DNA of 63,701 nt, the filler included, from Octopus bimaculoides (taxonomy: Eukaryota): assembly GCF_001194135.2 (NCBI RefSeq). It is 5 parts of 5 records of this genome, joined end to end, with 100 filler letters (N's around TTAATTAATTAA, not from the genome) between each part and the next. Parts side by side here need not be neighbours in the genome. Positions count along the whole stretch, not along the records: positions 1 to 23,903 come from NC_068983.1; positions 24,004 to 52,020 come from NC_068998.1; positions 52,121 to 57,917 come from NC_068999.1; positions 58,018 to 62,578 come from NC_068987.1; 1 more part is not named here. One strand, written 5' to 3'. The stretch's first letter is position 1; every line of letters begins with the position of its first letter. Shown here piece after piece: positions 7,865-61,023 of the stretch. Under the pieces are notes generated by a model. It saw nothing but the letters and a program-made list of their open reading frames with translations, was not told the DNA's origin and made no database searches. The position numbers and the translations under genes are program-made.

Positions 7865-7990
7865 AGATAAAAATCCAAGGCTGTGAAAGATTTCAGAACA
7901 TTTATAAAGTGAAGGTCTTACAGCTGTTTCCTGGATATTTTGTATATCTCTTCATTAGAAACGGTGCGAGAAAATGGTTAAGCAATAGTT
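7865..7990 (-). mobile_element. Penelope-like terminal repeat (pLTR) segment
   Basis: CCAAGGCTGTG...ACATTTATAAAG...GTCTTACAGCTGTTTCC.GGATAT is shared with 49775-49900. It lies just 3' of the Penelope ORF remnant and contains a hammerhead motif. Confidence 0.7.
7915..7962 (-). ncRNA. Minimal type-I hammerhead ribozyme motif (core mutated)
   Basis: Minus strand: GTTT-CTAATGA-AGAGATATACAAAATATCCAG-GAAAC-AGCT-GTA-AGAC. Stem I GTTT/AGAC, stem II GATAT/ATATC, palindromic stem III ACAGCTGT, GUA cleavage triplet. G5->A in the core. Confidence 0.75.
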
Positions 7991-8099
7991 TTTCTAGAGA
8001 AGATATGAAACAGAGATTGAAGTGCAGGAATGAAAACAGACGTGAGATACGCAGGGATATTGTATCTGCAGTTCCATTATTTAAGCAGAATGGTATACA

Positions 8100-9060
8100 T
8101 ATACGCATCCTGTACCTTGTGTGGAAGTTCAAATAGTATTTAAAATTGGTCATTCCCAGCGTAGGCTGGTGCTGAGTAAGCATAGTCTTTTCTCTTGTAT
8201 TTTTACGTTTATTTGAGAGTCAATGTTCATGTTCTTTTAACTACCAGATTTCATCAGACAATGTTATGTTGCAAGCATACTACTTCCTGAAGAAAGCAGT
8301 GTAGTTGTAATATTGCTCCTTGAAACTCTGCCACTTTTATGCTTGCTATTGGCTATATCGATAGAAATAACTTCAGTTTTGTACATTAATGTTTCGGCCT
8401 TGAAAGAATAGTCTTGCAGAACTCATTGCACGTACCTGCATGTGTCTCTGTGTTTGAGAGAGAAGGCAACAGCAAGTAACAAATTTGTGTTGATATTTAT
8501 CATATACTGTGATGGGAAGGAAAGTGTTCATTTAAAATTGTCAGGAAGCTTTTAACTAAGTTAGCCTTTAAGCTTAAAATGTAAATATAAATGCTCCATA
8601 TAAAACTGTGTGCTTGGACTTAGTTCAGGAGAGTGGAATTCGTAGTGTACTGAATTTTTTATAGTGGAAGTGCTACTTACTAAGGCAGTATTGTAATATG
8701 AGACGACTTTATTTAATGTATCTGTGATAGAAGAATGGTTAGACATTTTTCTGCTAATATTTCGATAAGAATTTGAAAACCATGGTGTTTGATAATATTT
8801 AGTGTTTGTATAAATCAATATTTCATTTGGCTGGCCTTGAGGTGTTAGTGTCCATGTTAAGAGTGACATCTAAGGATCTAACAGTTTTAGGTTAATGGTT
8901 AGCTTTAGGCCTAAGCTGTTGAAGATGCTTATGGAGTTATTTAATCTATCAAATGCCTGGTCCATTAGACTGTAATAAAATGGTCAATCCATTATGTCAA
9001 TATCATCCCATGTTGACAATGGTAAATCTATCTGTTAATATGATGATTACAAGTAGGCCA
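8100..9060 (-). mobile_element. Decayed Penelope-like retroelement (RT C-half, thumb, GIY-YIG)
   Basis: Ordered minus-strand motifs: MG*Y*HNGL (GLYRDDGL), FNSLGLKLTI, KTVRSLDVTLN, QPNEILIY, NISRKMSNHSS, YYNTAL, NLVKSFLTILNEHFPSHH, LMYKTEV, FKEQYYNYTAFFR, TLSDEIW*LK. Confidence 0.85.
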
Positions 9061-10875
9061 GCGAAATCACTAGCATATTGTTACATATTATATCTTGACA
9101 AGTACATATATTTTTTTTATTCCTAACATTTCTGTAAATTCACTGATACTTACAAATATACTACTAACTAAATATTATTACTCCCACTCTCAAAGAATGA
9201 AGAAAAATAGTCAAACTATAGAACAACCTTTCAGACCACGCCTAAACCAGTGAACAGGATCTACATGAAAAGTTTAATAAGTACAATGAAGAAAAAGTTA
9301 AATATGCTGGAAGTCATATTTTTACAGGACCATATTAAAAGTGATTTTTGAAATGCTAAGCTGGATCCACCTACTCCGGATTAAAGGACTCGGAAAATGT
9401 GAAGCCGTTACTCCGGAATTAATTAGAACAGAAGTATGTAAAATTAGATAGAAATAATTTCAAAAGTAAACTGAAATTGGTTATTATGAATAGCGTTTAA
9501 GAACTCTAATTTCATATATTTTCAGACGAGACAACTTGTTCAAACTTAGCAAAGATATTTACGATTAACTGTTAATTAACGTTGTCATGCGCAAATACAT
9601 TAAAGCTAAAAATATATTTTAATAAGACTAATGATGAAGCAAAAATAATAGCCACATAACTGAAACTAGATAAGAAAGCGCATTGTTTAGTCGAACATGA
9701 AGTGTTTATAATACTTATAAATTACAATGAGAGTTTCAGCGCAAACTGCGAGAGTAGACTAATAAATCACGTTATAAGTTATCGTAGGACAGATGGCATC
9801 CATATAGTTAATCACATTAACTATAAAATACGAAACGCTACCGGATTGCAACGATGAAATATATAGATACGTATATATAGTTGTTTTAAGATAATAAAAT
9901 GACATATTGCACTTAATATTGAGAAAAATGGAAAAATAATGTCAAGAATGCTGTATCAATTAGAAAGATAAGAAGCATAAACTCGTATAATATATCGTAT
10001 TATAAGTGTATTGCACCATATTATTTGATATTAAAGATAGTGTGTATAATTAGTCATAGACATTCTCAGTATTTTGTTTAGTATAGATAAAAATACATTG
10101 AAGATTAGTGTCCTTGAACCGTAAGAGTGAGTATGTTAAATTATTAAAGAAATATATAAATTCGTAAGATAGTTTTCGGCCGGATTGTGAAAAAGAAAAG
10201 AAATGCACTTACTGTATTATCTTACAAATAGTTTGAAATATTTCAATGTACGTCATAGCTGTTTAAAAAGACATCTAGAGATTTGTCCAGAATTTATTTT
10301 GGAGAGGAGACATTTTGAGAATTATAATTCGTATGATTCGGGTTTAGAAAGCGAACATATCGTGTGAATACTGATATGATCATGTGAAATAATCTAATTT
10401 TCATTTATTAATGTATATATTTTTTTTTTAGATTCCACTGCGTAACGGGACGAGTTGGTTACGAAAAGTGTATGGTGTGTATGGGAGTGTGTATGCGCGC
10501 GCGCGTGTGTGCGTGTGCGCGCGTGCGCGTGTATTGATAAATTATGATTATATAAATATAATTATAAGGGCAACTATTGGGTAGCGTTACATGTTAGAAG
10601 ATGCCAAATAGCTCTAAAACTACGTTATTTACCACAAAACGCGGGCTGAAAGCGAGGGAATGAACAAAAAAACATTATTTTTTAAAGTTTAGACATAAAT
10701 CGTTTTCTGGTTTAGAAATGTTATACCCTTTACCGTCCTCGGTATGATAAAACCGAAAGTACATGGTTATAAACATTTATAGGTACCATACGTACACAAT
10801 GTATCCACAGTACAGATGCAAATGTTCTCATTTATATACAAGTTAAATCTCGTTCGTTCATCTCATGGTTTGTTT

Positions 10876-10917
10876 TACATGCTAGCTACTTGATTTTTAT
10901 CAAGTAGCTAGCATGTA
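10876..10917. repeat. Perfect 19-bp hairpin
   Basis: TACATGCTAGCTACTTGAT-TTTT-ATCAAGTAGCTAGCATGTA. Confidence 0.95.
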
Positions 10918-11042
10918 TACAATCCTATATAGATTGTATCATTGATTATAATGATAAATACGAATTCACTTCAACCAAACTTATTCGCTGCTGAATTATT
11001 TTGGGTATTCACGCGTGGCTGAGAGGAACGAACTAGAATTTG

Positions 11043-11366
11043 GAGACCCCTTCGGTCATGAATGACCATGGAATTGAACCTAAAAAATTACCCTTCGAGG
11101 TACAAGTCCGGGCAAGGTTGTTAGTGGAAGGCCAGGAGTCACCCATGCATACCAGCCTCCCCTCCCCACACCACTGATGTCATCCAAGAGAAAGGCAAAT
11201 ACCGACACAGCTTGGCACCAGTGATGTCCCAACTCATTTCTACAGCTGAGTCAATTGGAGCAACGTAAAATAAAGTGTCTTGCTCAAGGACACGACACGC
11301 AGACCGGTCTGGGATCGAACTCACAACCTCACGATTGTAAGCTGGACGCTGTATCCACTGAGCCTT
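11043..11366 (-). mobile_element. tRNA-derived SINE, family E
   Basis: Reverse complement: GGCTCAGTGG (A box)...GAGTTCGATCCC (B box)...GTGTCCTTGAGCAAGACACTTTATTTTACGTTGCTCC...GGTCATTCATGACCGAAGGGGTCTC. Confidence 0.88.
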
Positions 11367-11751
11367 ACGTTAAACTAGTTAAACTAGAATATAACTTGTA
11401 TATAAATATGGACATTTATATATCCAATGTGGATACATTGATTTCGTATGGCATGCGTAAATGCTTATAATTATATACATTCGGTTATGTCATACTGACG
11501 ACAGTAAAGGGTATTACATCCCTAAATCAGAAATCGATTAATGTCTAAGCATGTTTTAAAAATTCATTTTTGTTCATTCCATCGCTTTTATCCCGTGTCT
11601 ATGTGATAAATAGGATGGTTTTAGAGCCATTTGGCGTCTTCTTCTAGCATGCGATACTACCTAGTAATTGCCCTTATTATAATTATATATATATATATGT
11701 ATATATATATGTATATATATACTTGCACACATGCGTACACACACACACCTA

Positions 11752-11788
<37 letters not shown>

Positions 11789-11789
11789 G

Positions 11790-12025
11790 TTAGTGTGTAG
11801 TTGTGTGTGTCTTTGTGTCTGTGTTCGTTCCTCATCACCACTTGACAACCAGTGTTGGTGTGTTTACGTCCCCCGTAATTTAGCGGTTCGACAAAAGATA
11901 CCGATAGAAAAATTACTAGGCTTACAAAGAATAAATCATGGGATCGATTTGTTGGATTAAAACTCTTCAAGGCAGTGCTCTAACATAGCCGCAGTCAAAT
12001 GACTTGTAACAAGTAAAAGAATAAA
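11790..12025 (+). mobile_element. SINE family B, 3' half
   Basis: CTTGACAACCAGTGTTGGTGTGTTTACGTCCCCCGTAATTTAGCGGTTCG...GCCGCAGTCAAATGAC matches 15380-15560. Confidence 0.85.
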
Positions 12026-37391: not shown

Positions 37392-37503
37392 AGTACAATA
37401 AATAAGTATAATATAATGCAAAGTAAATATCATAAGATCAAGATAATATTATCTTGATCTTATGATATTTACTTTGCATCATATTATACTTATTTATTGT
37501 ACT
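37392..37503. repeat. 112-bp spacerless palindrome at a contig start
   Basis: 56-bp arms, centre GATAAT|ATTATC, one mismatch. Confidence 0.95.
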
Positions 37504-38619: not shown

Positions 38620-38743
38620 GTAGCACCGCCTTTAGTCGAACAAATCGACCGTCAGGACGTATTCTTTATAAGCGTAGTACTTATTCTATCGGTCTCTTTT
38701 GCCGAACCGCTAAGTTACGGAGCCATAAACACACCAGCATCGG

Positions 38744-38775
<32 letters not shown>

Positions 38776-38947
38776 CACACGCACACACACACGCACACAC
38801 ATATATATACGACAGACTTTCAGTTTCCATCTACCAAATCCACTCACAAGGCTATAATAGAAGACACTTGCCCATGGTGCCTCGCAGTGGGACTGAACCT
38901 GGAGCTATGCGGTTGGTAAGCAAGCTACTTACCACACAGCCACTCCT
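38620..38947 (-). mobile_element. SINE family B, near full length
   Basis: GCACCGCCTTTAGTCGAAC...GTGGGACTGAACC...CTACTTACCACACAGCCACTCCT. Confidence 0.92.
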
Positions 38948-39095
38948 AATATTTTTTATTGATATTTAGCAGAAATAACAGAGTGACTCAATGTCCTAGA
39001 GTTTCGTGCGTTGGCATTTATCAAATTTTTATAAGTGCATGATAACGCCTGAATCTCTCGGATCTTGAGTCCCTCTGTTACCTCTGCTATATACT

Positions 39096-40915: not shown

Positions 40916-40956
40916 CATCAACGTTTCTAAACAATCTTAGCCTTGCCTTCAGGACG
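40916..40956 (-). ncRNA. Degenerate hammerhead-like motif at the 3' end of the Penelope remnant
   Basis: Minus strand: CGTC-CTGAAGG-...-GAAAC-GTT-GATG. Stem I CGTC/GATG pairs fully and AACGTT is a palindrome. A9->G, and stem II is weak. Confidence 0.35.
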
Positions 40957-43020: not shown

Positions 43021-44238
43021 CAACTAGTGCATTCAAATCAACATTAGGGATTCATATTTCTGAATCCATATAAATTTGTTCTTGTCGTTAAGTGGATTGT
43101 TAATTTTTGCCGCCATTTTTATTCATTATTGCCCTCCCCCCCCCCTTACTTATTTTAATATCGTCATCATTCTTTAAAGAATGCATGACTTCTTTTCGTA
43201 TCGCTTTAAGCATTTGTTTATTCCTATGCATTTATAACAAACCACATACATACATACATACATACATACATACATACCAATAGCCTGTTAATATTGTTTA
43301 AATTCCAATGAAGGAGACTTGGATCTAGATTAGAAAGACCTCCACTGGCACAAAATCTTGAAATAGAACTAAATAATGATATACATACATATATGTATAC
43401 AAACATATTACTACATGTACCTAGAGACATATAAGGATACATACATATATATNNNNNNNNNNNNNNNNNNNNNNNNNNNNNNNNNNNNNNNNNNNNNNNN
43501 NNNNNNNNNNNNNNNNNNNNNNNNNNNNNNNNNNNNNNNNNNNNNNNNNNNNNNNNNNNNNNNNNNNNNNNNNNNNNNNNNNNNNNNNNNNNNNNNNNNN
43601 NNNNNNNNNNNNNNNNNNNNNNNNNNNNNNNNNNNNNNNNNNNNNNNNNNNNNNNNNNNNNNNNNNNNNNNNNNNNNNNNNNNNNNNNNNNNNNNNNNNN
43701 NNNNNNNNNNNNNNNNNNNNNNNNNNNNNNNNNNNNNNNNNNNNNNNNNNNNNNNNNNNNNNNNNNNNNNNNNNNNNNNNNNNNNNNNNNNNNNNNNNNN
43801 NNNNNNNNNNNNNNNNNNNNNNNNNNNNNNNNNNNNNNNNNNNNNNNNNNNNNNNNNNNNNNNNNNNNNNNNNNNNNNNNNNNNNNNNNNNNNNNNNNNN
43901 NNNNNNNNNNNNNNNNNNNNNNNNNNNNNNNNNNNNNNNNNNNNNNNNNNNNNNNNNNNNNNNNNNNNNNNNNNNNNNNNNNNNNNNNNNNNNNNNNNNN
44001 NNNNNNNNNNNNNNNNNNNNNNNNNNNNNNNNNNNNNNNNNNNNNNNNNNNNNNNNNNNNNNNNNNNNNNNNNNNNNNNNNNNNNNNNNNNNNNNNNNNN
44101 NNNNNNNNNNNNNNNNNNNNNNNNNNNNNNNNNNNNNNNNNNNNNNNNNNNNNNNNNNNNNNNNNNNNNNNNNNNNNNNNNNNNNNNNTATATATATATT
44201 ATATATATATGTATCTTATAAATAAATAAATATATATA

Positions 44239-45137
44239 CGTGGTCTGATCAATAAGTATCCTGACTGTTGCTATAGTAACGAAGCTGAAGCACGCAAAGT
44301 AAAGCCGCTTGGCACAGATTGACCTTGATCTCTGCTATGCATGTGCACCAAGTTTTAATGTTCTAGCTCACTTCCGCTGTTTACAGCAGTGCTTGGAAGA
44401 AAAGTATGTAGCGTGTAATCGTCGCATTGAGGTTGACAGAGGCAGCTGAGCAGAGAATCTGCGTCAAATTTTGCCAAAAGCTTGTTGATGCCTGCTCAGA
44501 AGTCTATGCAAAGTTTTCAGAAAGTTTTCGTCGTTCTCGACACAATCAAGGAAATCTTGTGCAACTGAAACCCGAGTGTCCTTTTGGTCAGCTGAAAGCA
44601 GTTTTGACAGAAAGTTTGCTGACGCGCGTCTGGAACCCAAATCTTCAGTGATAATGAACTGGACTGAATCGTAACTAATCTGCACATCCTCTGATAACTC
44701 ACGGATGGTGATTTGACGACTTCCCCTCAGAGCTGCACGTACATCTGTGATGTTTTTTCTTGGTTCTGCTGGTTGCAGGTCTCCCAGAACGTTCGTCTAT
44801 ATCGACATTTTATCGGCCATCTTGCAAACGTCTGAGCCACTCATACACTTATGCGCAGCTCATACACTCCTCTCTATACACTTTCTGTAACTTTGCCCAG
44901 GCGTCTTAGCAGGCAGGTATCGCCCTGACAACTTTCTTTTCATGGTCAATGCGACGATCACACGCTACACACGTTCCTTCGAAGCATTGCTGTAAACAGT
45001 GGAAGTGAGCTAGAACATTAACATTTAGTGCACATACACAACAGAGTTTAAGGTCAATCTGTGCCGAACGGCTTTACTCTGCATGCATTAGCTCTGTCAC
45101 TATGGCAACATTCCTGCTACTTATTGATCAGACCTCC
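44239..45137 (-). mobile_element. Rearranged mariner made of two inverted 5' ends, TA target duplication
   Basis: TA|CGTGGTCTGATCAATAAGT...ACTTATTGATCAGACCTCC|TA. Arms 44239-44525 and 44880-45137 are inverted repeats. The minus strand encodes a mariner N-terminus (VYEWLRRLQDGR...ERSGRP...ITIRELSEDVQISYDSV...ANFLSKLL...NFLKT), and the plus strand of the left arm encodes EQRICVKFCQKL. There is no catalytic domain. Confidence 0.9.
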
Positions 45138-45256
45138 TATGAATGTATACATATGAAAAACAAAACAAGAATATTTGTACACAAAATATTTAATCACATC
45201 ATGAACATGATGCATTTGATGAACAAAAAAAACTTGTTCTGCTTTTCTGTATTATG

Positions 45257-48079: not shown

Positions 48080-48252
48080 CCTTTACATGGTCACTCGACA
48101 TTAAGTATACAAGTAGCAGCCTATCTGCACTCAGATTACACCCTACCCTCTTAGAAATCGGCAAGTTGGATAACGTGATGATGGATTAGCAACAAATCGG
48201 GAAAACAAAAGCGAAGCGGGATAATCATGGCTGAAATATTTATGACTGTCGA
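48080..48252 (+). mobile_element. Interspersed repeat family G (with 58115-58230)
   Basis: Both loci share CCCTACC.TCTTAG.AA...GGATAACGT...TCA.GG.TG..AAAT..ATGACTG. Confidence 0.5.
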
Positions 48253-48312
48253 TCAGCTTAGTCAGATAAACAATAACACACACATATATATGTATATGTA
48301 TATATATTTAGA

Positions 48313-48505: not shown

Positions 48506-48540
48506 TATATATACATGCATACATATACATACATGCATAG

Positions 48541-48608
<68 letters not shown>

Positions 48609-49172
48609 NNNNNNNNNNNNNNNNNNNNNNNNNNNNNNNNNNNNNNNNNNNNNNNNNNNNNNNNNNNNNNNNNNNNNNNNNNNNNNNNNNNNNNNNNNNN
48701 NNNNNNNNNNNNNNNNNNNNNNNNNNNNNNNNNNNNNNNNNNNNNNNNNNNNNNNNNNNNNNNNNNNNNNNNNNNNNNNNNNNNNNNNNNNNNNNNNNNN
48801 NNNNNNNNNNNNNNNNNNNNNNNNNNNNNNNNNNNNNNNNNNNNNNNNNNNNNNNNNNNNNNNNNNNNNNNNNNNNNNNNNNNNNNNNNNNNNNNNNNNN
48901 NNNNNNNNNNNNNNNNNNNNNNNNNNNNNNNNNNNNNNNNNNNNNNNNNNNNNNNNNNNNNNNNNNNNNNNNNNNNNNNNNNNNNNNNNNNNNNNNNNNN
49001 NNNNNNNNNNNNNNNNNNNNNNNNNNNNNNNNNNNNNNNNNNNNNNNNNNNNNNNNNNNNNNNNNNNNNNNNNNNNNNNNNNNNNNNNNNNNNNNNNNNN
49101 NNNNNNNNNNNNNNNNNNNNNNNNNNNNNNNNNNNNNNNNNNNNNNNNNNNNNNNNNNNNNNNNNNNNNNNA

Positions 49173-49554
49173 CAGGGTGATTCAAAAGTCGCCATACATA
49201 AGAATAATTTATTATTTTTTTATAAGAAACAGTTTATAAGAACAGTTTTTTTTATTTATTTAACAGGCTCTATATGGTTACCATATAGAGCTTGTTAAAT
49301 ACACATTGCAATACGTTTACCCCACTCATTGTGAACTAGTAATAGCACATCTGGTGATACGTGTGTAAAGGAGTTGGTGATGCGTTCCTTCAAATGATTT
49401 ATCTCTTTTATCTTTCCGTGATACACCATGCCTTTCAAATGACCCCAAAGACAGAAATCAAGAGGGGTCTGATCAGGGGACCTAGGGGATCTTATAAACC
49501 GTGTCTTATAAAAAATAAATTTTTCCTATGTATGGAGACTTTTGAATCACTCTG
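49173..49554 (-). mobile_element. maT/DD37D-like Tc1/mariner MITE with ~65-70-bp TIRs
   Basis: CAGGGTGATTCAAAAGTCGCCATACATA... at the left and ...TATGTATGGAGACTTTTGAATCACTCTG|TA at the right. The minus strand reads SPRSPDQTPLDFCLWGHLKGMVY...HLKERIT...KRIAMCI (PRSPDLTPLDF.LWG.LK motif). Confidence 0.88.
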
Positions 49555-49774
49555 TAGAAGAAATTTAGCCAAGTGGATCTCAAAAGGAAATTATGCAATT
49601 AAATATGTGTGTGTGTGTGTGTGTGTGTTATGAGTGGAGAGTAGTAAATAGCAACAAGCATTTAAAGACGAAAGGACTTATTACTGATAGTAAACTTTAT
49701 TACACACACACACACACACACACATGTATGTATGTATGTATGTGTGTGTGTATATGTTTAAATGAAATGAGACA

Positions 49775-49900
49775 ACAAAGCCAAGGCTGTGTGGAATTTT
49801 AAGGACATTTATAAAGAGAAAATTAGTCTTACAGCTGTTTCCGGGATATTAGGAATATCCCTTCAACAGAGACGATGTGAGATGGTTAAATAGAGGAAAA
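49775..49900 (-). mobile_element. Penelope-like terminal repeat segment (same family as 7865-7990)
   Basis: Collinear homology with 7865-7990. Contains a hammerhead motif. Confidence 0.7.
49826..49873 (-). ncRNA. Minimal type-I hammerhead ribozyme motif (one core change)
   Basis: Minus strand: GTCT-CTGTTGA-AGGGATAT(TCCTA)ATATCCCG-GAAAC-AGCT-GTA-AGAC. Stem I perfect, 7-bp stem II, A6->U. Confidence 0.8.
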
Positions 49901-49997
49901 TATTTGAGTTTAATATGAGGAGTTATTTTGGAAAAGGAACCAAATAAGGAGTATATAGGGAAAAATATAGGGAAATATGAATGTAGAAATAAAAATG

Positions 49998-50029
<32 letters not shown>

Positions 50030-50350
50030 NNNNNNNNNNNNNNNNNNNNNNNNNNNNNNNNNNNNNNNNNNNNNNNNNNNNNNNNNNNNNNNNNNNNNNN
50101 NNNNNNNNNNNNNNNNNNNNNNNNNNNNNNNNNNNNNNNNNNNNNNNNNNNNNNNNNNNNNNNNNNNNNNNNNNNNNNNNNNNNNNNNNNNNNNNNNNNN
50201 NNNNNNNNNNNNNNNNNNNNNNNNNNNNNNNNNNNNNNNNNNNNNNNNNNNNNNTATATAGGGAAGAATTCACAAAAAACAAAAGACCAAGACAGGTGGT
50301 GTAGACAACAAACAGATGTATTAGTATAGCGCTCCGGGAAGTGAAAAAGT

Positions 50351-50386
50351 CTTCAAAGTTTCGAGCCTACGCTCTTCTACAGAAAG
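50351..50386 (-). ncRNA. Degenerate hammerhead motif in another pLTR-like repeat (approx. 50255-50440)
   Basis: Minus strand: CTTT-CTGTAGA-A-GAGC(GTAG)GCTC-GAAAC-TTT-GAAG. Stem II perfect and stem I paired. Core A6 and the stem III G are mutated. Confidence 0.55.
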
Positions 50387-50769
50387 GAACACAGAAAGAA
50401 GCAAGAAGAGAAAATAAAGAATGTGTAGTGGCTTGGCCCTCACTTTACGTTTTACCTCCCGAAGTATATACATACATGCATAAATACGTATATGCACACA
50501 TATATACATAGAGACCTCTAGAATTTGTCCTAACACTGGTATCAGCTCTCTCACGTTGCACAGACAGGGTAGATATAGATTTATACCTGTTTCGGCGCGG
50601 AGAACGAAAAAAGCCTGAGGGGACACTATGGAGCATTGTTTGTCGAGCATTGTTACGTCTAATTTTGATGAAGTAACTGATCGAATGTACAGTGTCTGTT
50701 GGAATTTTGGCCTATGGGTTTTAAAAGAGATCTCTGGTAATCTACGATGAGGAGTTATGTTCTTGAATT

Positions 50770-50831
50770 CATGGGAAAAATTTATTTTTTATAAGACACG
50801 GTTTATAAGATCCCCTAGGTCCCCTCATCAG
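50770..50831 (+). mobile_element. 62-bp inverted fragment of the 49173-49554 MITE
   Basis: CATGGGAAAAATTTATTTTTTATAAGACACGGTTTATAAGATCCCCTAGGTCCCCTCATCAG is the reverse complement of about 49469-49530 with 2 differences. Confidence 0.9.
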
Positions 50832-51079
50832 TTACGTCAGGATTGGAACTTTCTTTCTTATTAGTCCAAAAAGAATGGTACTGAAGTTGAACTAGGTCGG
50901 ATAGGAAGTGGCAGAGAGCCGAAGCATTTAGTATTGTGCATTCTATATGAAGCCGTAATAACTGTCAGTTCACCGCCATTATATATGTATATGTACATAG
51001 ATACGTAAGTACATGTATGCATGTATATCCATCCATCCATGAACACATATATATTTATACACATGCATATATGGTATGG

Positions 51080-51139
<60 letters not shown>

Positions 51140-51142
<3 letters not shown>

Positions 51143-51302
51143 ACGAAATTTGAGTCAACAAGAAAGGGTACGGTTGGCCAATTTATATTTTAATCTCTAC
51201 AATTGTTTCGACGCAACGTAGTTCTCCAGGTCGAGACAATTGCAGTGATTAAAAAAATAAATGTTCAACCTTACCCCTTCTTGTTGACTCCAATTTCTTC
51301 AA
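51140..51302. repeat. Long foldback hairpin (73-nt arms, 17-nt loop)
   Basis: TTGACGAAATTTGAGTCAACAAGAAAGGGTACGGTTG...CTACAATTGTTTCGAC pairs with GTCGAGACAATTGCAG...CAACCTTACCCCTTCTTGTTGACTCCAATTTCTTCAA. Confidence 0.9.
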
Positions 51303-52020
51303 TTACCTATCCACACATGACAGATACGCAAACGCAACCTGGACGTACGTATAATACTACTACTGGGTTGCAGAGGGCAAATCTGAAAGAGGACGAACTC
51401 TATACTGTACTCTACTCCGTTCTTTTCAGAATATCCCATAACTGTATATATATATAATATCATTTTTCAACTACCTTGAATTAAATAACATGCTCATACA
51501 CGATTGGTTTAACAAAAGTTTCCTGGACGGTTGAAAATTCCCACCCTAGTCGTTTGCAAAGCAAAATTTCCATAAAGTGTTCGCAGCATGTTATGCGCAA
51601 GCATTTAGATTGAGGTCAGATACAATTAAGTGTCCTGCTTTCAGATGTGATTTAAAATCTACCGTTACACAACGACTGCTGAACTATGGCCTGGTATATA
51701 AACCATTATAGGAGTAATTGATTTCGACACATTGTAACAACACTGATGCAGTCACACACACAGTCACGCACACACACGTACACATTCACAAACGCCCACA
51801 CACATATATATGCACATACATACACACACACAGACACACAAAACAACGGATAGAGGCAGGCACGCATGCAATCTCAAGCACAATCACAGTTGTTGATAAC
51901 TGACATACATACATATATGAGTTTTTGTAAGTATACATGCATATCGTCACATGTACACATATCTGTATATATAATCGTATTTTCATAAAGGCATATCATA
52001 TATATATATATATATATATA

Positions 52021-52120
52021 NNNNNNNNNNNNNNNNNNNNNNNNNNNNNNNNNNNNNNNNNNNNTTAATTAATTAANNNNNNNNNNNNNNNNNNNNNNNN
52101 NNNNNNNNNNNNNNNNNNNN
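52021..52120. other. Artificial scaffold-join spacer N44-TTAATTAATTAA-N44
   Basis: Linker at 52065-52076, 44 N on each side. Confidence 0.95.
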
Positions 52121-52158
<38 letters not shown>

Positions 52159-52536
52159 ATAATTAAACGAATAGACGCCACATTAAGACAAACTACACAT
52201 ACCAGCGTAGACAATATATATTTCCTTCTCTTCCTCTTCCATATAATTGTGTGTGCGTATAGTTACTTATATTATAATAGGTGTGTGCGTGCGTGCGTGC
52301 GTGTGTGTATGTTTGTGTGTGTGTGCGTGTTTCTATGTTTTCGCTTGCGCGTGCGAAGCTCTCGTGTGGTATATACAGAAATAGATATGCTGTATAAACA
52401 TGACCAACTGCAAAGTAAACTCTCACTGAACACTGGTATTACTAAATATACAAAAACCGCATGATATAGATTTAAAGTCTAAATACGCAAAATATACGAT
52501 ATATTCACACATGCCATGGTTTCGCTAATTACTCAC

Positions 52537-52688
52537 AGGCAGAGACGCACTCTCGTTTGTCCCACTGCGACCCCAGTAGAAATTCCATGATGTGAGAGGT
52601 TGAAGAGGGAGAAGGCTGCAGCCGTTTTCGTTTCTTAGCTTCTTTATCGACCTGGATTTTGTACTGCAATGTTTGCCCCGGGTGAGAT
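52537..52688 (-). CDS. Candidate internal coding exon, unidentified protein
   Basis: Pyrimidine-rich ...TTCAG acceptor and CCT|GTGAGT donor. 152 nt (1+150+1), GC-richer than the flanks, reading SHPGQTLQYKIQVDKEAKKRKRLQPSPSSTSHIMEFLLGSQWDKRECVSA. A second frame is also open. No homology recognised. Confidence 0.4.
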
Positions 52689-53002
52689 CTGAATTCAATG
52701 TTGAAAGGGGCAGAACAAGTCTCTCATTTAACGCATCAACAAATATTCCTGCGCTATTGAATCTGCAGATCAATTTTCGCACGAACAAGCTAAAGATTCG
52801 AAGTCACTATCAACGTTTATCTTTTAAACCTGTATTGATATGTTATCTATTGAAATGGGATTGCCTCCTTTTCCAGTGTAATGGAAAATCATTTTCGTAT
52901 ATAATTTCAAATAGATAGATAGACAGATAGATTGATTGATTGATTGATTGATAGACTGATAGATTGATTGATAGAGAAGATAGAATGATTTATTGAGAGA
53001 TT

Positions 53003-53042
<40 letters not shown>

Positions 53043-53772
53043 TACAGACAGACAGACAAATATAAATATATATATATATAATTATATATATATATATATA
53101 TATNNNNNNNNNNNNNNNNNNNNNNNNNNNNNNNNNNNNNNNNNNNNNNNNNNNNNNNNNNNNNNNNNNNNNNNNNNNNNNNNNNNNNNNNNNNNNNNNN
53201 NNNNNNNNNNNNNNNNNNNNNNNNNNNNNNNNNNNNNNNNNNNNNNNNNNNNNNNNNNNNNNNNNNNNNNNNNNNNNNNNNNNNNNNNNNNNNNNNNNNN
53301 NNNNNNNNNNNNNNNNNNNNNNNNNNNNNNNNNNNNNNNNNNNNNNNNNNNNNNNNNNNNNNNNNNNNNNNNNNNNNNNNNNNNNNNNNNNNNNNNNNNN
53401 NNNNNNNNNNNNNNNNNNNNNNNNNNNNNNNNNNNNNNNNNNNNNNNNNNNNNNNNNNNNNNNNNNNNNNNNNNNNNNNNNNNNNNNNNNNNNNNNNNNN
53501 NNNNNNNNNNNNNNNNNNNNNNNNNNNNNNNNNNNNNNNNNNNNNNNNNNNNNNNNNNNNNNNNNNNNNNNNNNNNNNNNNNNNNNNNNNNNNNNNNNNN
53601 NNNNNNNNNNNNNNNNNNNNNNNNNNNNNNNNNNNNNNNNNNNNNTATATATATATATATATATATTATACATGTATTTATGTATGTGTGTATATCTATC
53701 TATGTGTATACAAACGAATTTATGCGTACGATATGCATGTATGCACACATTTATACATATACACACACGTGA

Positions 53773-53815
<43 letters not shown>

Positions 53816-54194
53816 CATAGAGTGAATAATTTTCCAGTTGTATCTAAAATTTCTGCTGAAATTTCACTGCAGATATAAATATGATGTATGCCTTCACCGT
53901 TATATGTTTTTCTTTGGTGCGGTAAATTCTTATTTTTTCATTCTTTTGTTTTACTTTTTTTTTTTTTTAAATCTCATTTCGTTTTCGTTCGTTTTCTATT
54001 TTGCCGTTGTATTTTCCTCAGAGATTTATTAGCAAGGATAAAAAAGCACCGCAGACTTAAAATAACATCGACAGTCCGCTATTAAAAAGAAACCCTAGCT
54101 TCTAAATATCAGTGGTAAAGTATTAATAGCACTGTTAATGTAAAGATCTAAATCTATGGAGTATATTAAACATTATTCTACCTTCGTTCAGATG

Positions 54195-54410
54195 ACAGAA
54201 TTGGAGAAGCGACTGACAAAATATTTTGCAGTATTTAGTTTCACATCAACTCTACTTACTTGAATTTCAATCCCACAGGAATCGATGTTGCTTTTATCAT
54301 TTCAATGTGTCGGTAAAATGAAATACAAGTACAGGTTTGCATCGGGGATCGTTAAATTCATAAGACCCACCCAAAAATTAAGTTTAGGTGCTCGTATTAA
54401 AAAAAAAAAT
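54195..54410 (+). mobile_element. Very old SINE family A-like copy
   Basis: TGACAAAATATTTTGCAGTATTT...TTTCAATCCCAC...GTCGGTAAAATGAAATACAAG...ATCGGGGATCG, followed by an A-rich tail. Confidence 0.4.
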
Positions 54411-54559
54411 CAGTTAGATAGCCTAGGGTTGTAGACACAATGTTAGGTTCGACAGTTATAATCAAGAAATGGATTCTGAATAAAAGTATGAGTTTCCAGA
54501 AAATAGGTGGCCACATGGTTTTGCATTTACGGCTGAGAATAATGTTTTGAATGGCAATT

Positions 54560-54946
54560 GGCTGCCAGCTGGCAGAAACGTTAGCACGCCGGGTGAAATG
54601 CTTAGCGGTGCCACTGCATTCTGAGTTCAAATTCCGCCGAGGTCGACTTTGCCTTTCATCCTTTCGGGGTCGATAAATTAAGTACCAGTTACGCACTGGG
54701 GTCGATATAATCGACTTAATCCGTTTGTCTGTCTTTGTTTGTCCCCTCTGTGTGTAGCCCCTTGTGGGCAGTAAAGAAATAGGTATTTCGTCTGTCTTTA
54801 CGTTCTGAGTTCAAATTTCGCCGAGGTCGACTTTGCCTTTCGTCCTTTTGGGGTCAATAAATTAAGTACCGGTTGTGTACTGGGATAGATCTAATCCACT
54901 GACTCCATCCCCATGAACTTCGGGCCTTGTGCCTAGAGTAGAAAAA
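54560..54946 (+). mobile_element. SINE family A, dimeric long form
   Basis: Monomer 1 at 54560-54782 and a headless monomer 2 at 54783-54946 both contain CTGAGTTCAAATT.CGCCGAGGTCGACTTTGCCTTTC.TCCTTT.GGGGTC.ATAAATTAAGTACC. Confidence 0.92.
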
Positions 54947-55125
54947 GAATGGTTGGCACATCGGACAAAATTGTTGAGCAGCATTTCTCCTGTGACTTTC
55001 TGTTCTGAGTTCAAATCCAGTCAAGGCCATCTTCCTTACCGAATCGAAAAAAAATAAGGTATTGGTCAAGTGGTGAAATCGACGTTATCGACTTGCTTCG
55101 CCCCTCAAATTTGCTGGTCTTGAAA
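54947..55125 (+). mobile_element. Old SINE family A copy in tandem
   Basis: GCAGCATTTCTCC...CTGAGTTCAAATCC...GTTATCGACTTGC...CCCTCAAATTTGCTGGTCTTG. Confidence 0.6.
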
Positions 55126-56219
55126 CTAGGTGTCCCTTTCGACAGAGTTGTGATAATCTTGGGCGCATGCACACGATAGAATCCAGGTAACCGGCCGAAT
55201 GAATCCTAAGGCCAAAGAGAAAATAATATGCATAATATGCCCTTTGAGGGCATATTCAAAAGGTAAATGAAAGCTATTTTTCTTAAAGTGTGGAATTGAA
55301 CGGCATTTTGTCAGGAGTCGCTTAATATACAATTATAATTATTGTAAATAAGTTAATGATCGATTTTCTGTACAGCACTACAGATAAAACTATCCATGAG
55401 GATTTGCGAGATTTTATTATCTACGAGATTTGCAAATGTACAAAACTGGGTTAGTTACGAGATGGATTTCGAAACACAATGCAATGTAAACAAGCAATGA
55501 TTTAAAGTTAAGAGAGTGCAACATCAACAATTTTGTCAAAGTGACTCTATATGCATGCAAAACTAATCACGCTGAAGATGATATCCGGATATTTTTCGTG
55601 CGGCATTAAACAAGGGAATTATAATGCGATTTGCAATGAGAAATTGTTAAATTGCTGCCTACATTTAATCATCAATAAACGGCCATTTAATTATAGTAAC
55701 TAAATCCTCAAATAAAACTCTGGTTACTATATAATATTACAATTAAGAGTCTTCTCAAAACATATGGAAAAATCAATTAGTTAATCCCCATCTTCGTACA
55801 AACGTAATCCCTCATTTTACAACGTTGAGATTTCTTATTAATCTGTTTTCTTTTCTTTCTTTCCTGTTTTTTTTTTCAATTTTATGGGTCACCTTACAAT
55901 CCTAAATACAACTTAAACTCTACATAAATATTAACCTCTACGGCCTCTCACAAGATATTTCTTTCTTAATTTTTCTTTTTTCATTTGTCTTTCTCAATTC
56001 CAACACTATACAGTTTTTATTTGTTTCTGCAAATCAAAAATTTATATAAAGACGTGATTGCTGACACATGTACAGCTAGAGGCTGCGCGCGCGCATGTGT
56101 GTGTTTGTGTGGTTTTCGCTAACCAGTTCTCTGCCAGCCAAGCTTCTCGTTAAGTGAATGTAATGTATTTTCCTAGATACCTACACATACGTATATATAT
56201 AAGTATGTCTATTTATATA

Positions 56220-56286
56220 GGCGTAGGAGTGGCTGTGTGGTAAGTAGCTTGCTCACCATCCACATGCAAACTGAAAGAAGACCGTC

Positions 56287-56290
<4 letters not shown>
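56220..56290 (+). mobile_element. SINE family B head with an internal deletion
   Basis: GGCGTAGGAGTGGCTGTGTGGTAAGTAGCTTGCTCACCATCCACATG joins directly to CAAACTGAAAGAAGACCGTCG. The B box and core are missing. Confidence 0.85.
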
Positions 56291-56340
<50 letters not shown>

Positions 56341-56771
56341 GCATATTTTTTATTTATACATATATACTGATGTTTCCGTGTATATGTGTATATGTGAAGG
56401 AATATTTACGTGTATGTATATATGCATATAGGTGTAAACATCTATGTTTGTGTATTTATGTGCATATGTAAATATCTAATGACATATGATCATAATCATG
56501 GCTATCATCATCGTCATTATCTGCTCTGTGTGGATTACAAGCCAAACACAGGCGACGATAACGGAATTGTCCAAATGATTAACATTGAATTTATTATCAT
56601 CTTAACAATGTGAGGTTCAGAATGTTGTGGTATACGTGACTAGACCAGAAAAGACCCGTACTTACTTTTATCGCTAGTTTCGAATTGTAAGGGGAACAAT
56701 AATAATTTCTCATTCGAAAAGAGAAAGATGAAATATTTATGATGTAATTCTCCAATAATCTATAGCTTTGA

Positions 56772-56862
<91 letters not shown>

Positions 56863-57371
56863 GTATATGTATGTATGTATGCACAAGATAATTCAATGTA
56901 TAAGAAGACTAATACGTCTACTCATTCTTCTTATTCCTTGAATTATCTCGGTTATACAAACTGGAAGCTATAATCTATATAGGCGAACACAGGATTTTAC
57001 CCATTAGATGAAATACACTGGGGGTAATTTTACCTCGAATAGCCCAACGTTGTTCTTTGCCACTCGATGCAGTTAGCCATAGCTTCGATTACAATAGACT
57101 GCTTGAATCGTACTCTCCTGGATATACACATGTGTTGTGGGCACATTGGTGTAATGGTAGCCAACATAGAGGTGTGGGTTCGAGTCACATGCGTACTGAA
57201 AACCGACTTTTTCCCGTCGAGGTTTTACATGCCCTTATATTAAACTATTGTCAATACATAGTAATCGCTTATAAGCTTTAAGCATATAAAATAATATTAT
57301 TGCTATTTACAGAATTGTAAAACTCGGCACCGCTTATCAAATCATCTCAGAAAACGCACATGCTTGTTTAT

Positions 57372-57439
<68 letters not shown>

Positions 57440-57440
<1 letters not shown>

Positions 57441-57532
57441 GAAGACATCCAAGATGCCGCCAATGCGATTCAAGGCCAAACTAAGTGATTGCACGGCGAG
57501 ATTCTTAATCACACAAGCTCAGCCTGGTCATG
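57440..57532 (-). mobile_element. Degenerate SINE family B head
   Basis: Reverse complement: GGCTGAGCTTGTGTGATTAAGAATCTCGC...TTGAATCGCATTGGCGGCATCTTGGATGTCTTCTG. Confidence 0.5.
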
Positions 57533-57882
57533 AGATTTTAGTTTATTATTTTATTTGCGTTGTGTAGCGCTAAGTCAACAAAAGTTGAAAGAACCTACAA
57601 TGTGAAACAAAAACTGTGAAAAAACGGAATTAATCGGTTTTCGATATCAACATACTGTAGAACCACAGCAGACAGATTTCTATACTGAGAATTATTTTGG
57701 CAAATTCTTTAACAGTTCTACCAACCGCAGCAGTCTTTCACTAACGGGTATTAACTCAACTCTTAAGGTTTTAGATAGATAATCAGATTTAGACATTATA
57801 TACAGAAAATATAGCAAAAACAGACTGATGCATATCACCTGATTGCTAAGAGAGGATTACAGCATTTGAAAGAAATTTCATT

Positions 57883-57917
<35 letters not shown>

Positions 57918-58017
57918 NNNNNNNNNNNNNNNNNNNNNNNNNNNNNNNNNNNNNNNNNNNNTTAATTAATTAANNNNNNNNNNNNNNNNNNNNNNNNNNN
58001 NNNNNNNNNNNNNNNNN
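57918..58017. other. Artificial scaffold-join spacer N44-TTAATTAATTAA-N44
   Basis: Linker at 57962-57973, 44 N on each side. Confidence 0.95.
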
Positions 58018-58075
<58 letters not shown>

Positions 58076-59377
58076 CCTCACACACACTCATTTTCTTTTA
58101 TTCCCTGATCCCGCTTCCCTTTCCCTACCGTCTTAGGAAAGACGGGCATATTTGATGGATAACGTAGTCCTAGACATACTATATTTGAATATAAGATGAC
58201 ATGGTCACGGTTGGAAATCCATGACTGATCATTGTCTAAACAATAATAACATCAACACCAAGTTTGATTTGTCATTTCTTACGGCGAAAGGTTGTTGTCT
58301 GGGGAAGATTTGAGAGAAACACAGAGAGAGAGGAAGAAAATAAAGGTATCCACGTCGGTTCTTGTTGAATGACGTGTCTAGCAACAGCGCCGTCCTAGAT
58401 CGGCGAACAATACCAGACGTGTATTGGGAGTTGTGGGTTTTTTCTTTGTGTCTGAAATTATTGACGCTGTTTCAGTTGTCGTATAACCAACGGCTAAACA
58501 TAACGGACAACTTTGATCAAAGAAGTTCCATTTTTCGTCATTTTGGTTTTCTTATCAATCAAACACAATACATCCAAGACTATCATAATCAATGTGTCCT
58601 ACTTTTTAAAATGTCTGGGTTAAATTTTAGCGATATTTTGCTGTTATTTTTGCATGTCGAGCAACCTCATATGGCAGGAAGAAATGAACTCATCCACCTT
58701 ATTTAGTTTCACCTCTAAAAACCATAAAATGTAGATTAATTGATTCTTAAGACCTAAACTGTATTTTCACAACAATTTAATATTTTACTTTGTTTTGACA
58801 AGATTCTTAATGTGAATTCGTGTGTTGAAACAAATCTCTGTGATTATTTTGGACTCTCCCTAGACGCAACAAGATTCTATATTTAAAGTTTCTCAGAGCC
58901 ATTCATTCATTACTTTTCTCGGTACTGTTGTACCCTGTTGGGTTGTCATGCACTTGTTTATCACTGTTGACAGCCAAAGTTCGCTCAACCTTGAAATACA
59001 GGCTGCTTGACTGACTGGCTGGTGTTTCACGTAGACATTGTTATGTGACTGCTACTTTAAGAAGTCATCATTGATATATCTCGTTAGAATATTCGACACG
59101 TCATTATTTTTGTCAAGGCTCTCATCAAGAAATGCGATATCGGTCATTGACAAAAACTATTTCCAAAGGTTTATTTACAAATGTCGTTGACATTACATCA
59201 GTTTTCTCTTGCTGGTTATCACTGAAGTTGTGTTTCTTTATGTCATACATCGAGGATTGACCTCATTAACAGAACGTAGTCGGGTTATTTTTAATCATAA
59301 ATACACAGCAAGCATACCCGAACGTACACAATTATTTCCTTCTACGATAGGCACAATGTTTAGAAATTTAAGGGCAG

Positions 59378-59500
59378 GCAGCTGGTACTTATTTTATCAA
59401 CCCTGAAGAGTTGAAAGAAACTCGATCTCGGAGGAATTTGAACTCAGAACATAAAGAGCAGGAAGAAACGTCGTTAACCATTTTGCCCGACGCACAAACG
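59378..59500 (-). mobile_element. SINE family A fragment
   Basis: CTGGTACTTATTTTATCAACCCTGAAG...TCTCGGAGGAATTTGAACTCAGAAC. Confidence 0.8.
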
Positions 59501-60450
59501 TTGGAATGAGAAGGAAACAGCGAAGAATGGCTGAGCGCAGAATGAGTAGATAGAAAACATAGCCTCTTGTTGCTTATGAAGCCATAAAGAGGAAATCAGG
59601 AGGAGATGATGAGCAGTGATTGGGTCACCTCTGCTGACCCACCGATGAGAGAGTATTGCAGTTCAGTGTCGAAACAGCCAATGATCGTTGGATACCATCT
59701 GGCCAAAACTGCATTCACTTTGTTCGAGGTGTTATCAATAACATAGACTGAACTAAAACGCATATCCACCATATAAATTATAAATACAAGTTTTTTTATG
59801 AGCACAGACATGCACGCGCGCGCGTCACCGATTCGGACGATCAGAAACTCCCGATGTAGATCTTAACTGAAACAAAAGAGCCTGCTGCTTGGTTCGGGAC
59901 CACCTTGAATTCTTTAAATGAAAAGACTTTAGAAAAAAATCCGAAAGGAAACCAAACGCATACACGAGCATTATAAGTGAAGTTTTGTAAAAGTAAGCAA
60001 CGGAATTTGAAAGTTGGTCTCAACGATGGCGGAAATGCATCGCATGTAATTGAGATTGTGTTTATATGGAGACTGTGTTTAGATAGAAAGAATTACTCTC
60101 GCAACATGTGTCAGTTGAACGGCCTAAATAAACGTTTGCCCACTTTTAAGTTACTGTCGACAAGACCCACATGTGCGTGAGTTTGTGTATTTATGTGTGT
60201 GTGTGTGTGTGTGTGGCTATTTGTTCACAACTTTTTCCACCTTGTAAGGGTAACTAGACCCCATTTTCCTGCCGTTTTAACGGCGATGCTGCGTTCGAAA
60301 TATCCCCTTCTTGTCTGTAGCGTACGATGCACATTCGACGCTTCTAACAAACAAACGTAAGTTTGTTTACATGCACGTGCTTGTTATAAATACATACATG
60401 CGCGCGCGTGTGTGTGTGTGTGTGTGTGTCTGTGTGTGTGTGTGTATGTT

Positions 60451-60810
60451 TCTTTTATTCTGTTAGTTTCAGTCATTTGACTGCGGCCATGCTGGAGCAC
60501 CGCCTTTAGTCGAACAAATCGACCCCAAGACTTATATTTTGTAAGCCTAGTACTTATTCCATTGGTCTCTTTTGCTGAACCCCTAAGTTACGCGGGATGT
60601 AAACGCACCAACGTCAGTTGTCGAGCAATGGCGGGAGGGGGAGGGACAAACACAGATACACAAACACATGCATACATACAAAATCCACCCACAAGTCTTT
60701 TGTCTGCCCGAGGTTATAGTAGAAGACACTGGCCCAAGATTCCACACAGTGGGATTGAACCCAGAACCATGTGGTTGAGAAGGAAGCTTCTTGCCTCACA
60801 GCAACTCCTA
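60451..60810 (-). mobile_element. SINE family B, full length with deletions
   Basis: TTTCAGTCATTTGACTGCGGCCATGCTGGAGCACCGCC...GTGGGATTGAACCCAGAACCATGTGGTTG...CACAGCAACTCC. Confidence 0.9.
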
Positions 60811-60983
60811 CATACATTCATACAACCCACACAAAACAAGAAATTAAAATATCATCATTTCTAAAAATAGATTTAACATCAATTCTAAAAATAGCCAAAC
60901 ACCTACTGCTGCCGTCCAAAGGAATTGGTATAAAAGACAGAAAACCAGCCAACTTATCACAGTCTGTTAAAGTCTGTCATACC

Positions 60984-61023
60984 GGCCATGACGAAGGGAA
61001 ATAGCCCTGAAACTCGAGTCGCC
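60984..61023 (+). ncRNA. Minimal type-I hammerhead ribozyme motif (one extra A in the core)
   Basis: GGC-C(A)TGACGA-AGGG(AAATAG)CCCT-GAAAC-TCGA-GTC-GCC. All three stems pair perfectly, stem III is the palindrome ACTCGAGT, and the cleavage triplet is GUC. Confidence 0.8.

What the first reader, a model, noticed from the sequence alone, without database searches (positions are those of the whole stretch)
7915..61023. About eight minimal hammerhead ribozyme motifs from several different Penelope-associated families in 64 kb
Seen: motifs with stem I - CUGANGA-like core - stem II - GAAA - short stem III - GUH at 7915-7962, 22017-22062, 23268-23350, 30153-30196, 40916-40956, 49826-49873, 50351-50386 (all minus) and 60984-61023 (plus), with a weaker one at 31476-31517. 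Stem III is usually a self-complementary palindrome (ACAGCTGT, ACCAATTGGT, ACTCGAGT, ACATGT, AACGTT). Stems I and II differ between copies but still pair, so several families are present. Established: Penelope-like elements carry minimal type-I hammerheads in their terminal repeats, and palindromic stem III allows cleavage as a dimer. Inference: the locus records repeated waves of Penelope elements. Nearly every copy has exactly one core lesion, which may reflect decay or selection against self-cleavage inside a host transcript; most copies are on the same strand as the candidate gene.
Basis: partly seen in the sequence, partly recalled or inferred. Interest (0 to 1): 0.72.

Follow-up and report, generated by a model that had tools for sequence, protein, structure and literature searches.

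The report
Penelope hammerheads with family-fixed altered cores
These motifs are scattered, mostly worn copies of a known small hammerhead RNA motif, likely all left by Penelope-like jumping genes, and two abundant families carry a changed core in nearly every copy (one extra base, or an A-to-U swap), which would make them natural tests of whether such elements must cut their own RNA; cutting is untested.

Summary
Four families, covering five sites, have Penelope-type GIY-YIG or RT remnants beside the hammerhead; four show none. This is the known minimal hammerhead of Penelope-like elements. The window is three chromosomes, not one locus, and its density looks ordinary. 'One lesion per copy' does not hold: five lesions are private and match neutral decay, two cores are intact, and two 'lesions' are fixed in the family. 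At 60984 a young Neptune-type lineage has an extra base between C3 and U4 (100 of 100 listed among 860 matches) and kept it while all three stems were rewritten with compensatory changes; it likely still works, though one subfamily lost the base again. At 50351 A6 is U in 4,100 matches against 79; a branch of about 370 also has U4A, so this core is likely crippled. I found neither variant in print but could not read Lunse 2017. Cleavage is untested.

The parts
7915..7962 (-). Decayed minimal hammerhead, family of 49826; private G5A
   Evidence: (77% over 127 nt to 49766-49889)
14415..14464 (-).
   Evidence: 76-82% over 40-50 nt
22017..22062 (-). Old family; core intact, stems I and III damaged; no EN/RT remnant in 11 loci
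23268..23350 (-). Hammerhead with long stem II insert; G5A not in the family majority; GIY-YIG-like remnant 1.0-1.3 kb upstream in 1 of 25 loci (L064)
30153..30196 (-). Old family with 6-bp stem I and 4-bp stem II; core intact, stem I damaged; PLE or retrozyme-like, link not shown (0 of 25 loci)
31476..31517 (-). Old family, 7 copies seen; private G8C; no EN/RT remnant in 7 loci
33526..33582 (-).
   Evidence: 89% over 57 nt
40916..40956 (-). Old family, 4 copies seen; private A9G; no EN/RT remnant in 4 loci
49826..49873 (-). Minimal hammerhead of an abundant PLE family with intact majority core; private A6U in this copy; GIY-YIG remnants beside it in 5 of 30 loci
50262..50433 (-). 3' fragment of a Neptune-type PLE of the U6 lineage
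   Evidence: EN upstream, same strand, in L119, L124, L126; L191
50351..50386 (-). Hammerhead with family-fixed A6U core (CUGUNGA at 50382-50376); private damage in stem III
60810..61165 (+). 3' fragment of a young Neptune-type PLE (copies 93-99% identical), running into an assembly gap
60984..61023 (+). Hammerhead identical to its family majority, with a lineage-wide extra base between C3 and U4 (core 60987-60994; predicted cut after 61020)

Best explanation
The motifs are dispersed copies of the minimal type I hammerhead, four of whose eight families sit next to Penelope-type endonuclease or RT remnants, so all are likely terminal-repeat fragments of Penelope-like elements whose hammerheads would cut tandem precursor RNA as dimers, while inserted solo copies decay by likely neutral mutation. 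Shown: family membership, the EN/RT link for four families, intact majority cores in six, no excess of core mutation, and two family-fixed core variants. Inferred from the literature: cleavage as dimers through the palindromic stem III. Inferred here: the extra base between C3 and U4 in the Neptune-type lineage of 60984 is a tolerated bulge (C3-G8 kept; the base is U or A and was lost once), so that ribozyme likely still cuts, perhaps slowly (about 60%). The U6 lineage of 50351 likely cuts poorly or not at all and spread anyway (about 60%).
For: Families and majority cores. Pfam GIY-YIG at L145 (E 7e-7) and L021 (E 1.3e-4, at the cut-off). EN on the same strand upstream in L145, L139, L149 (60984), L119, L124, L126 (50351), L021, L011 (49826), L064 (23268). 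CX4CxxC linker before the GIY-YIG in L176 and L173, the Neptune/Nematis mark (PMC8557442). Inverted partial copies beside the focal one in 9 of 30 and 6 of 25 loci (two of the 9 are the same pair). Neutral decay: non-CpG divergence core vs flank 0.028 vs 0.033, 0.037 vs 0.073, 0.008 vs 0.029, 0 vs 0.007, 0.032 vs 0.20, 0.07 vs 0.26; family core intact in 23 of 29, 16 of 24, 21 of 24, 23 of 24, 16 of 24, 4 of 10 (best BLAST hits, so biased to well-kept copies). Insertion: 860 matches, 100 of 100 listed with the extra A; 18 of 24 parsed own-genome relatives carry it, stems paired in 96.8% of cells against 72.8% for shuffled partners (max 81% in 2000), with double changes in stems I, II and III. 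U6: 4,100 against 79; 370 with U4A as well; single and double mutants of the CUGA turn have low activity except the C3-G8 swap (PMC9901934).
Against: No cleavage was observed; RNA reads cross the predicted cut of the 60984 family with no pile-up of ends listed there (fragmented libraries with reads in both directions, so weak either way). No EN/RT remnant for four families (0 of 11, 25, 7 and 4 loci), and none in the window. Only 25 of 62 EN loci gave a parsable hammerhead, and the parser demanded stems, so the pairing figure is inflated; related copies also beat such a shuffle. The EN tree leaves the older canonical rows in an open fork with insertion rows, so the order of events is not proven. 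For U6, positions 7 and 17 vary among subfamilies and G17 is absent in 100 of 100 listed (hand tally), as expected if it were still selected as a hammerhead. A minus-strand excess on C18 (11 of 12) is unexplained.
Confidence: 0.72

Rival explanations
1. Both variant cores are working, selected ribozymes. A6U is a specific tolerated variant, slow and perhaps helped by protein or the dimer, not a relic.
For: Among the first 100 of 3,440 matches (hand tally), position 6 is U 96, C 4, A 0; position 7 is G 36, U 37, C 17, A 10; position 17 is U, A or C, never G. The free positions drift while C3 (97), G5 (91), G8 (93) and A9 (96) hold across subfamilies about 75-90% alike. A natural A6C keeps low activity (PMC3088659). 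Unchecked AI notes report a fixed A6U in shark PLEs, a lead only.
Against: A subfamily of about 370 matches amplified with U4A plus A6U. Flanks near the motif are also well kept between subfamilies, and stem II was fixed by my patterns, so it shows no covariation. PMC9901934 reports low activity for such mutants.
Confidence: 0.3
2. Neither variant cuts. The hairpins and the palindrome are kept for a non-catalytic role such as RNA dimerisation or recognition by the element's RT, and the core is carried along.
For: Insertions next to C3 impair natural saltern hammerheads (PMC3088659). Naiads spread without canonical hammerheads (PMC8557442). Some EN loci have deletions inside the motif (L166, L169, L170). 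No end pile-up in RNA reads.
Against: C3, UGA, GA, GAAA and the NUH triplet persist in 24 of 24 parsed relatives while the stems were rewritten (the parser required these letters). One amplified subfamily returned to the canonical core (28 of 35).
Confidence: 0.2
3. One reading: copies lie in the sense strand of a host transcript, and selection removed those able to cut it.
For: No window copy passes the descriptor with an intact canonical core. Local strand bias: C18 6 of 6 minus in the window and 5 of 6 in 200 kb of flank.
Against: Three chromosomes; C3 flanks are 4 minus and 4 plus. No core excess in six families. Lesions are expected from age. Solo minimal hammerheads did not cleave in vitro (PMC4209133). 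No host exon found.
Confidence: 0.07
4. Some of the old families (30153 above all) are non-LTR retrozymes or other non-coding elements, not ends of autonomous PLEs.
For: 30153 has canonical helix sizes (6 and 4 bp), one tandem copy 301 nt away in 1 of 25 loci, and no ORF remnant.
Against: Inverted partial copies in 3 of 25 loci, as in PLE insertions. Old truncated PLE ends often lack ORF within 1.5 kb. No tandem array seen.
Confidence: 0.3

Closest known systems
Minimal hammerheads (min-HHR) in pLTRs of metazoan Penelope-like elements; Cervera and De la Pena 2014, PMC4209133 (read: main text parts 1-2 of 4, supplement parts 1-2 of 3)
   Same: Type I order, short stem I, palindromic 15.2-16.2 or loop 3, extra base after A9 in several families, many families per genome, mostly solo copies, position 3' of the GIY-YIG.
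   Different: The 56 representatives of Fig. S3 read CUGANGA, UUGANAA or UUGAAGA; none has U6 or a base between 3 and 4, and none is a cephalopod. In the 60984 lineage stem II opens with U-A, C-G, C-A or A-U, not G10.1-C11.1.
Neptune (or Nematis) clade of EN+ PLEs; Craig et al. 2021, PMC8557442 (passages)
   Same: C-terminal GIY-YIG after a CX2-5CxxC linker, hammerhead in the 3' end (60984 and 50351 lineages). Two metagenome relatives carry the same hammerhead as the Acropora Neptune entry of Cervera Fig. S3.
   Different: Neptune versus Nematis was not separated by an RT tree. 4 of 8 metagenome relatives show a hammerhead, all with canonical cores.
Natural core variants of Perreault et al. 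2011, PMC3088659 (passages and section 8): A6C of phage Bcep176, A6a, U13a, and the 2a/2b insertions of saltern HHmeta/HHphage
   Same: A change at position 6, and an insertion beside C3, both with low activity in vitro.
   Different: Those are single microbial sequences; here the variants are fixed in animal retroelement lineages of hundreds to thousands of copies. The insertion here is best read as between C3 and U4, since the extra base is U or A and C3-G8 stays.
Small PLE hammerhead variants that cleave as dimers; Lunse et al. 2017 (not held, nothing read; known only through the review PMC6765202, passages)
   Same: Short stem III, PLE association and dimer cleavage, as the review cites it.
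   Different: Could not be checked; it may already list these core variants.
Metazoan non-LTR retrozymes; Cervera and de la Pena 2020, PMC7229834 (passages)
   Same: Type I hammerheads in non-coding repeats; the 30153 family has canonical helix sizes.
   Different: No tandem arrays seen; four families are tied to PLE coding remnants.

Membership tests
PLE minimal hammerhead (min-HHR) | CUGANGA and GAAA core with NUH triplet in the family majority | tested here: met
   Six of eight families; 31476 and 40916 rest on 7 and 4 copies
PLE minimal hammerhead (min-HHR) | Canonical core in the 50351 and 60984 families | tested here: not met
   U6 in 4,100 against A6 in 79; extra base in 100 of 100 listed. 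These are variants
PLE minimal hammerhead (min-HHR) | Palindromic 15.2-16.2 or loop 3, unstable as a monomer | tested here: met
   Family majorities; folding of six natural copies
PLE minimal hammerhead (min-HHR) | Covariation of stems across subfamilies | tested here: met
   60984 lineage only, with selection bias; not tested for the U6 lineage
PLE minimal hammerhead (min-HHR) | G10.1-C11.1 pair with an extra base after A9 | tested here: inconclusive
   Present in 50351 and, with an added A before GAAA, in 49826; absent in the 60984 lineage
PLE minimal hammerhead (min-HHR) | Self-cleavage as a dimer | not testable with these tools
   RNA reads show no end pile-up, but the library type cannot show it
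EN+ Penelope-like element | GIY-YIG and RT upstream of the hammerhead: families 49826, 23268, 50351, 60984 | tested here: met
   23268 rests on 1 of 25 loci
EN+ Penelope-like element | GIY-YIG and RT upstream of the hammerhead: families 22017, 30153, 31476, 40916 | tested here: inconclusive
   0 of 47 loci within 1.5 kb
EN+ Penelope-like element | Full ORF flanked by two pLTRs | tested here: inconclusive
   12 fetched stretches of 8-9 kb are broken by assembly gaps; longest frame 327 aa
Neptune/Nematis clade | CX2-5CxxC linker before a C-terminal GIY-YIG | tested here: met
   L176, L173; L119, L191
Neptune/Nematis clade | Placement by RT phylogeny | not tested
   No reference RT set at hand
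Non-LTR retrozyme (30153 family) | Tandem units of 150-450 nt and circular RNA | tested here: inconclusive
   One tandem copy in 25 loci; circles not tested

The most novel reading that the evidence does not exclude
The hammerhead core has a natural, working variant with an extra base between C3 and U4, kept through the rewriting of all three stems in a recently active Neptune-type lineage, and a second lineage made more than 4,000 copies after losing A6 (and one branch after losing U4 too). CUGANGA descriptors see neither, so PLE hammerheads are undercounted, and one genome offers an age-ordered series of cores for testing whether cleavage is needed for Penelope retrotransposition.
Probability: 0.4. 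Interest if true: 0.65.

Novelty: new variant of a known kind. Interest (0 to 1): 0.46.

Why it matters
The finding as worded is known biology: minimal hammerheads in Penelope ends. The two family-fixed cores matter more. The CUGA turn is held to be nearly intolerant of change (PMC9901934), and the role of hammerheads in EN+ Penelope elements is described as unclear, possibly parasitic (PMC8557442). A lineage that keeps a bulged core with covarying stems, and another that amplified with one and then two core substitutions, give ready natural constructs for both questions. U6 motifs were 6 of 17 intact-core motifs in the flank sample, so standard descriptors miss a large share in this genome.

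Tried and rejected
Rfam scan: microsatellite-driven miRNA matches, no hammerhead in the 150 of 227 rows shown. The repeat finder was swamped by microsatellites. The first descriptor was too strict and gave nothing above shuffles. Host gene: 247 of 248 window frames and 150 of 227 flank frames against Pfam gave only transposon domains in the flanks and sub-threshold hits in the window; the DUF846 hit at 34008-34211 is spurious, the family lies on C2. A full-length element was not recovered. Sequencing runs: no RNA holder listed as such; raw-read runs came by species label. 'The 60984 element ends at the hammerhead' was rejected: it runs on for 300 nt or more. 'A6 copies are a separate intact sister family' is unresolved: they mix with U6 copies in an unsupported FastTree, yet the CUGAUGA/GUA group is the most diverged (0.73) and may hold the ancestral form. 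The U4A pattern was meant as a mutation-rate control and failed as such, because it found an amplified subfamily. A 2a-type reading of the insertion is less likely, because it needs A3-G8 in the youngest subfamily. U6 with other stems (272 matches, control 8) looks like mutants of the same family and of one large canonical family. Lunse 2017 is not held. Supplements other than Cervera 2014 were not opened; those of Craig 2021 and Perreault 2011 may bear on novelty.
Full report
Setting. The window is a pack of five stretches of a 2.34-Gb, microsatellite-rich animal genome. It is likely an octopus; that label comes from recall and from earlier AI notes, not from a test. The sites lie on C3 (7915 to 23350), C18 (30153 to 50386) and C7 (60984). 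There is no single locus.

Observation. All nine sequences are as stated. In the window alone the signal is modest: 3 descriptor hits against 0.57 in 30 shuffles, 12 against 6.1 for the loosest form, and none with an intact canonical core. An earlier, stricter descriptor did not beat shuffles, and Rfam listed no hammerhead in the 150 of 227 rows shown. The proof is family membership: every searched site has other genomic copies, and the majorities of six families read CUGANGA ... GAAA with palindromic stem III. 7915 and 49826 are one family. Flanks of the fetched loci hold 17 intact-core motifs in 416 kb against 0-1 in five shuffles, about 2.3 per 57 kb (five are neighbours of the focal family, so this is somewhat high). 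With decayed copies added, the window looks ordinary. Two more decayed copies turned up at 14415-14464 and 33526-33582.

What carries them. GIY-YIG remnants lie upstream on the same strand for the families of 60984, 50351, 49826 and 23268, and inverted remnants lie beside some copies. The 60984 and 50351 lineages have a CX4CxxC or similar linker before a C-terminal GIY-YIG, which marks Neptune/Nematis in PMC8557442 (passages). Nothing was found for 22017, 30153, 31476 and 40916 (0 of 47 loci). No full element was recovered, because of assembly gaps.

Lesions. Five window copies have a private core change, two have an intact core with damaged stems, and two match a family-fixed variant. Across other copies the core is never more mutated than the flank in six families, and 16 to 23 of 24 to 29 copies keep the family core in the five larger sets, 4 of 10 in the sixth (best hits, biased to young copies). 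Window copies differ from their majority by 6-27% (0.7% for 60984), which predicts a core change with probability 0.50-0.97 (7915 not computed). Neutral decay is enough. A minus-strand excess exists on C18 (6 of 6 in the window, 5 of 6 in the flanks) but not in the C3 flanks (4 and 4). No host exon was found to relate it to.

Variant 1, extra base between C3 and U4 (60984). All 25 aligned copies and 100 of 100 listed among 860 exact matches read C-A-UGANGA; the 40 scored copies are 93-100% identical to the window, so the family is young. Following its endonuclease (150 matches), 25 of 62 loci gave a parsable hammerhead; the others had gaps, truncation or deletions. Of the 24 from this genome, 5 have A, 13 have U and 6 have no extra base. 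The canonical ones are mostly those with 76-80% EN identity, and 4 of 8 metagenome relatives show hammerheads, all canonical. I infer canonical, then U, then A; the tree clusters the labels but leaves the deep fork open. All three stems changed on both sides; 96.8% of cells pair against 72.8% for shuffled partners, a figure inflated by the parser and by kinship. One subfamily lost the base again (28 of 35), so it is tolerated, not required. In three RNA runs of one study, 345, 238 and 169 reads from about 6% of each run lie on this region in both directions, with no end pile-up listed at the predicted cut and no deletion of the extra base listed. This shows transcription of some copies and says little about cleavage. 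A contig from a run labelled as another organism spans the motif with one difference; I give it little weight.

Variant 2, A6U (50351). Exact matches number 4,100 with U6 and 79 with A6, and 0 for the reversed controls. In the first 100 of 3,440 unbiased matches (hand tally) position 6 is never A, position 7 takes all four bases, and position 17 is U, A or C, never G. That pattern fits continued selection. Against it, about 370 matches carry U4A as well and form a subfamily 91% alike within, and CUGA-turn mutants have low activity (PMC9901934, passages; A6C below 0.1 per min in PMC3088659, section 8). I put a crippled or dead core at about 60%. Unchecked AI notes describe a fixed A6U in shark elements; I did not test this.

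Mechanism. By PMC4209133 (main text parts 1-2), minimal hammerheads do not cut alone and cut weakly as dimers, likely to process tandem precursor RNA. The palindromes here are predicted to pair between molecules, not as hairpins (the 4-nt palindrome of the U6 family gives only -1.7 kcal/mol). Solo inserted copies would therefore be nearly harmless and decay. All catalytic statements are inferred.

Novelty. The class is known. Seven literature searches, the 56 representatives of Cervera Fig. S3 and passages of PMC3088659, PMC6765202, PMC10085705, PMC11662667 and PMC7229834 showed no U6 or C-N-UGA core in Penelope elements and no cephalopod survey. PMC7151607 was seen as a listing only. Lunse 2017 could not be read and may hold them. 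Verdict: new variant of a known kind, interest 0.46.

Noticed in passing
C18 14.30-14.41 Mb (window 30153-50386 and loci L327-L334): 11 of 12 hammerhead-family copies are on the minus strand, and none was detected in the 100 kb before; may mark a long intron or an insertion bias.
   Followed up: partly
L240-L259: Subfamily of about 370 matches with two core substitutions (U4A, A6U) and a GUC triplet, 91% alike within.
   Followed up: partly
L145, L155, L165, L163, L287: The hammerhead stems turn over much faster than the adjoining endonuclease (76-97% amino-acid identity).
   Followed up: yes
L145:2790-2830, L012, L077, L327, L333, L343: Another family with an intact canonical minimal hammerhead recurs in flanks; absent from the window.
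   Followed up: no
window 44467-44796 (-), inside inverted arms 44222-44430 and 44946-45154: Likely mariner-type transposase remnant by recalled likeness; no Pfam hit.
   Followed up: no
window 10549-10848 and 11389-11695; 32157-32374 and 33263-33479: Long inverted repeat pairs, about 77-81% alike; MITE-like or paired SINE copies.
   Followed up: no
window 15176-15565, 27272-27687, 38622-38948, 60449-60810: Abundant two-part SINE-like repeat; the copy at 60449-60810 abuts the young Penelope fragment.
   Followed up: no
window 37400-37495: Near-perfect AT-rich 95-nt palindrome.
   Followed up: no
L302 and L305 (metagenome contigs): Neptune-like elements whose hammerhead matches the Acropora entry of Cervera Fig. 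S3.
   Followed up: partly
L032:546-830 (-): A frame that looks like an exon of an ionotropic glutamate receptor ligand-binding domain, by recall.
   Followed up: no
L217 and L218: Identical U6 copies about 195 nt apart across an assembly gap; may be tandem repeats or assembly duplicates.
   Followed up: no
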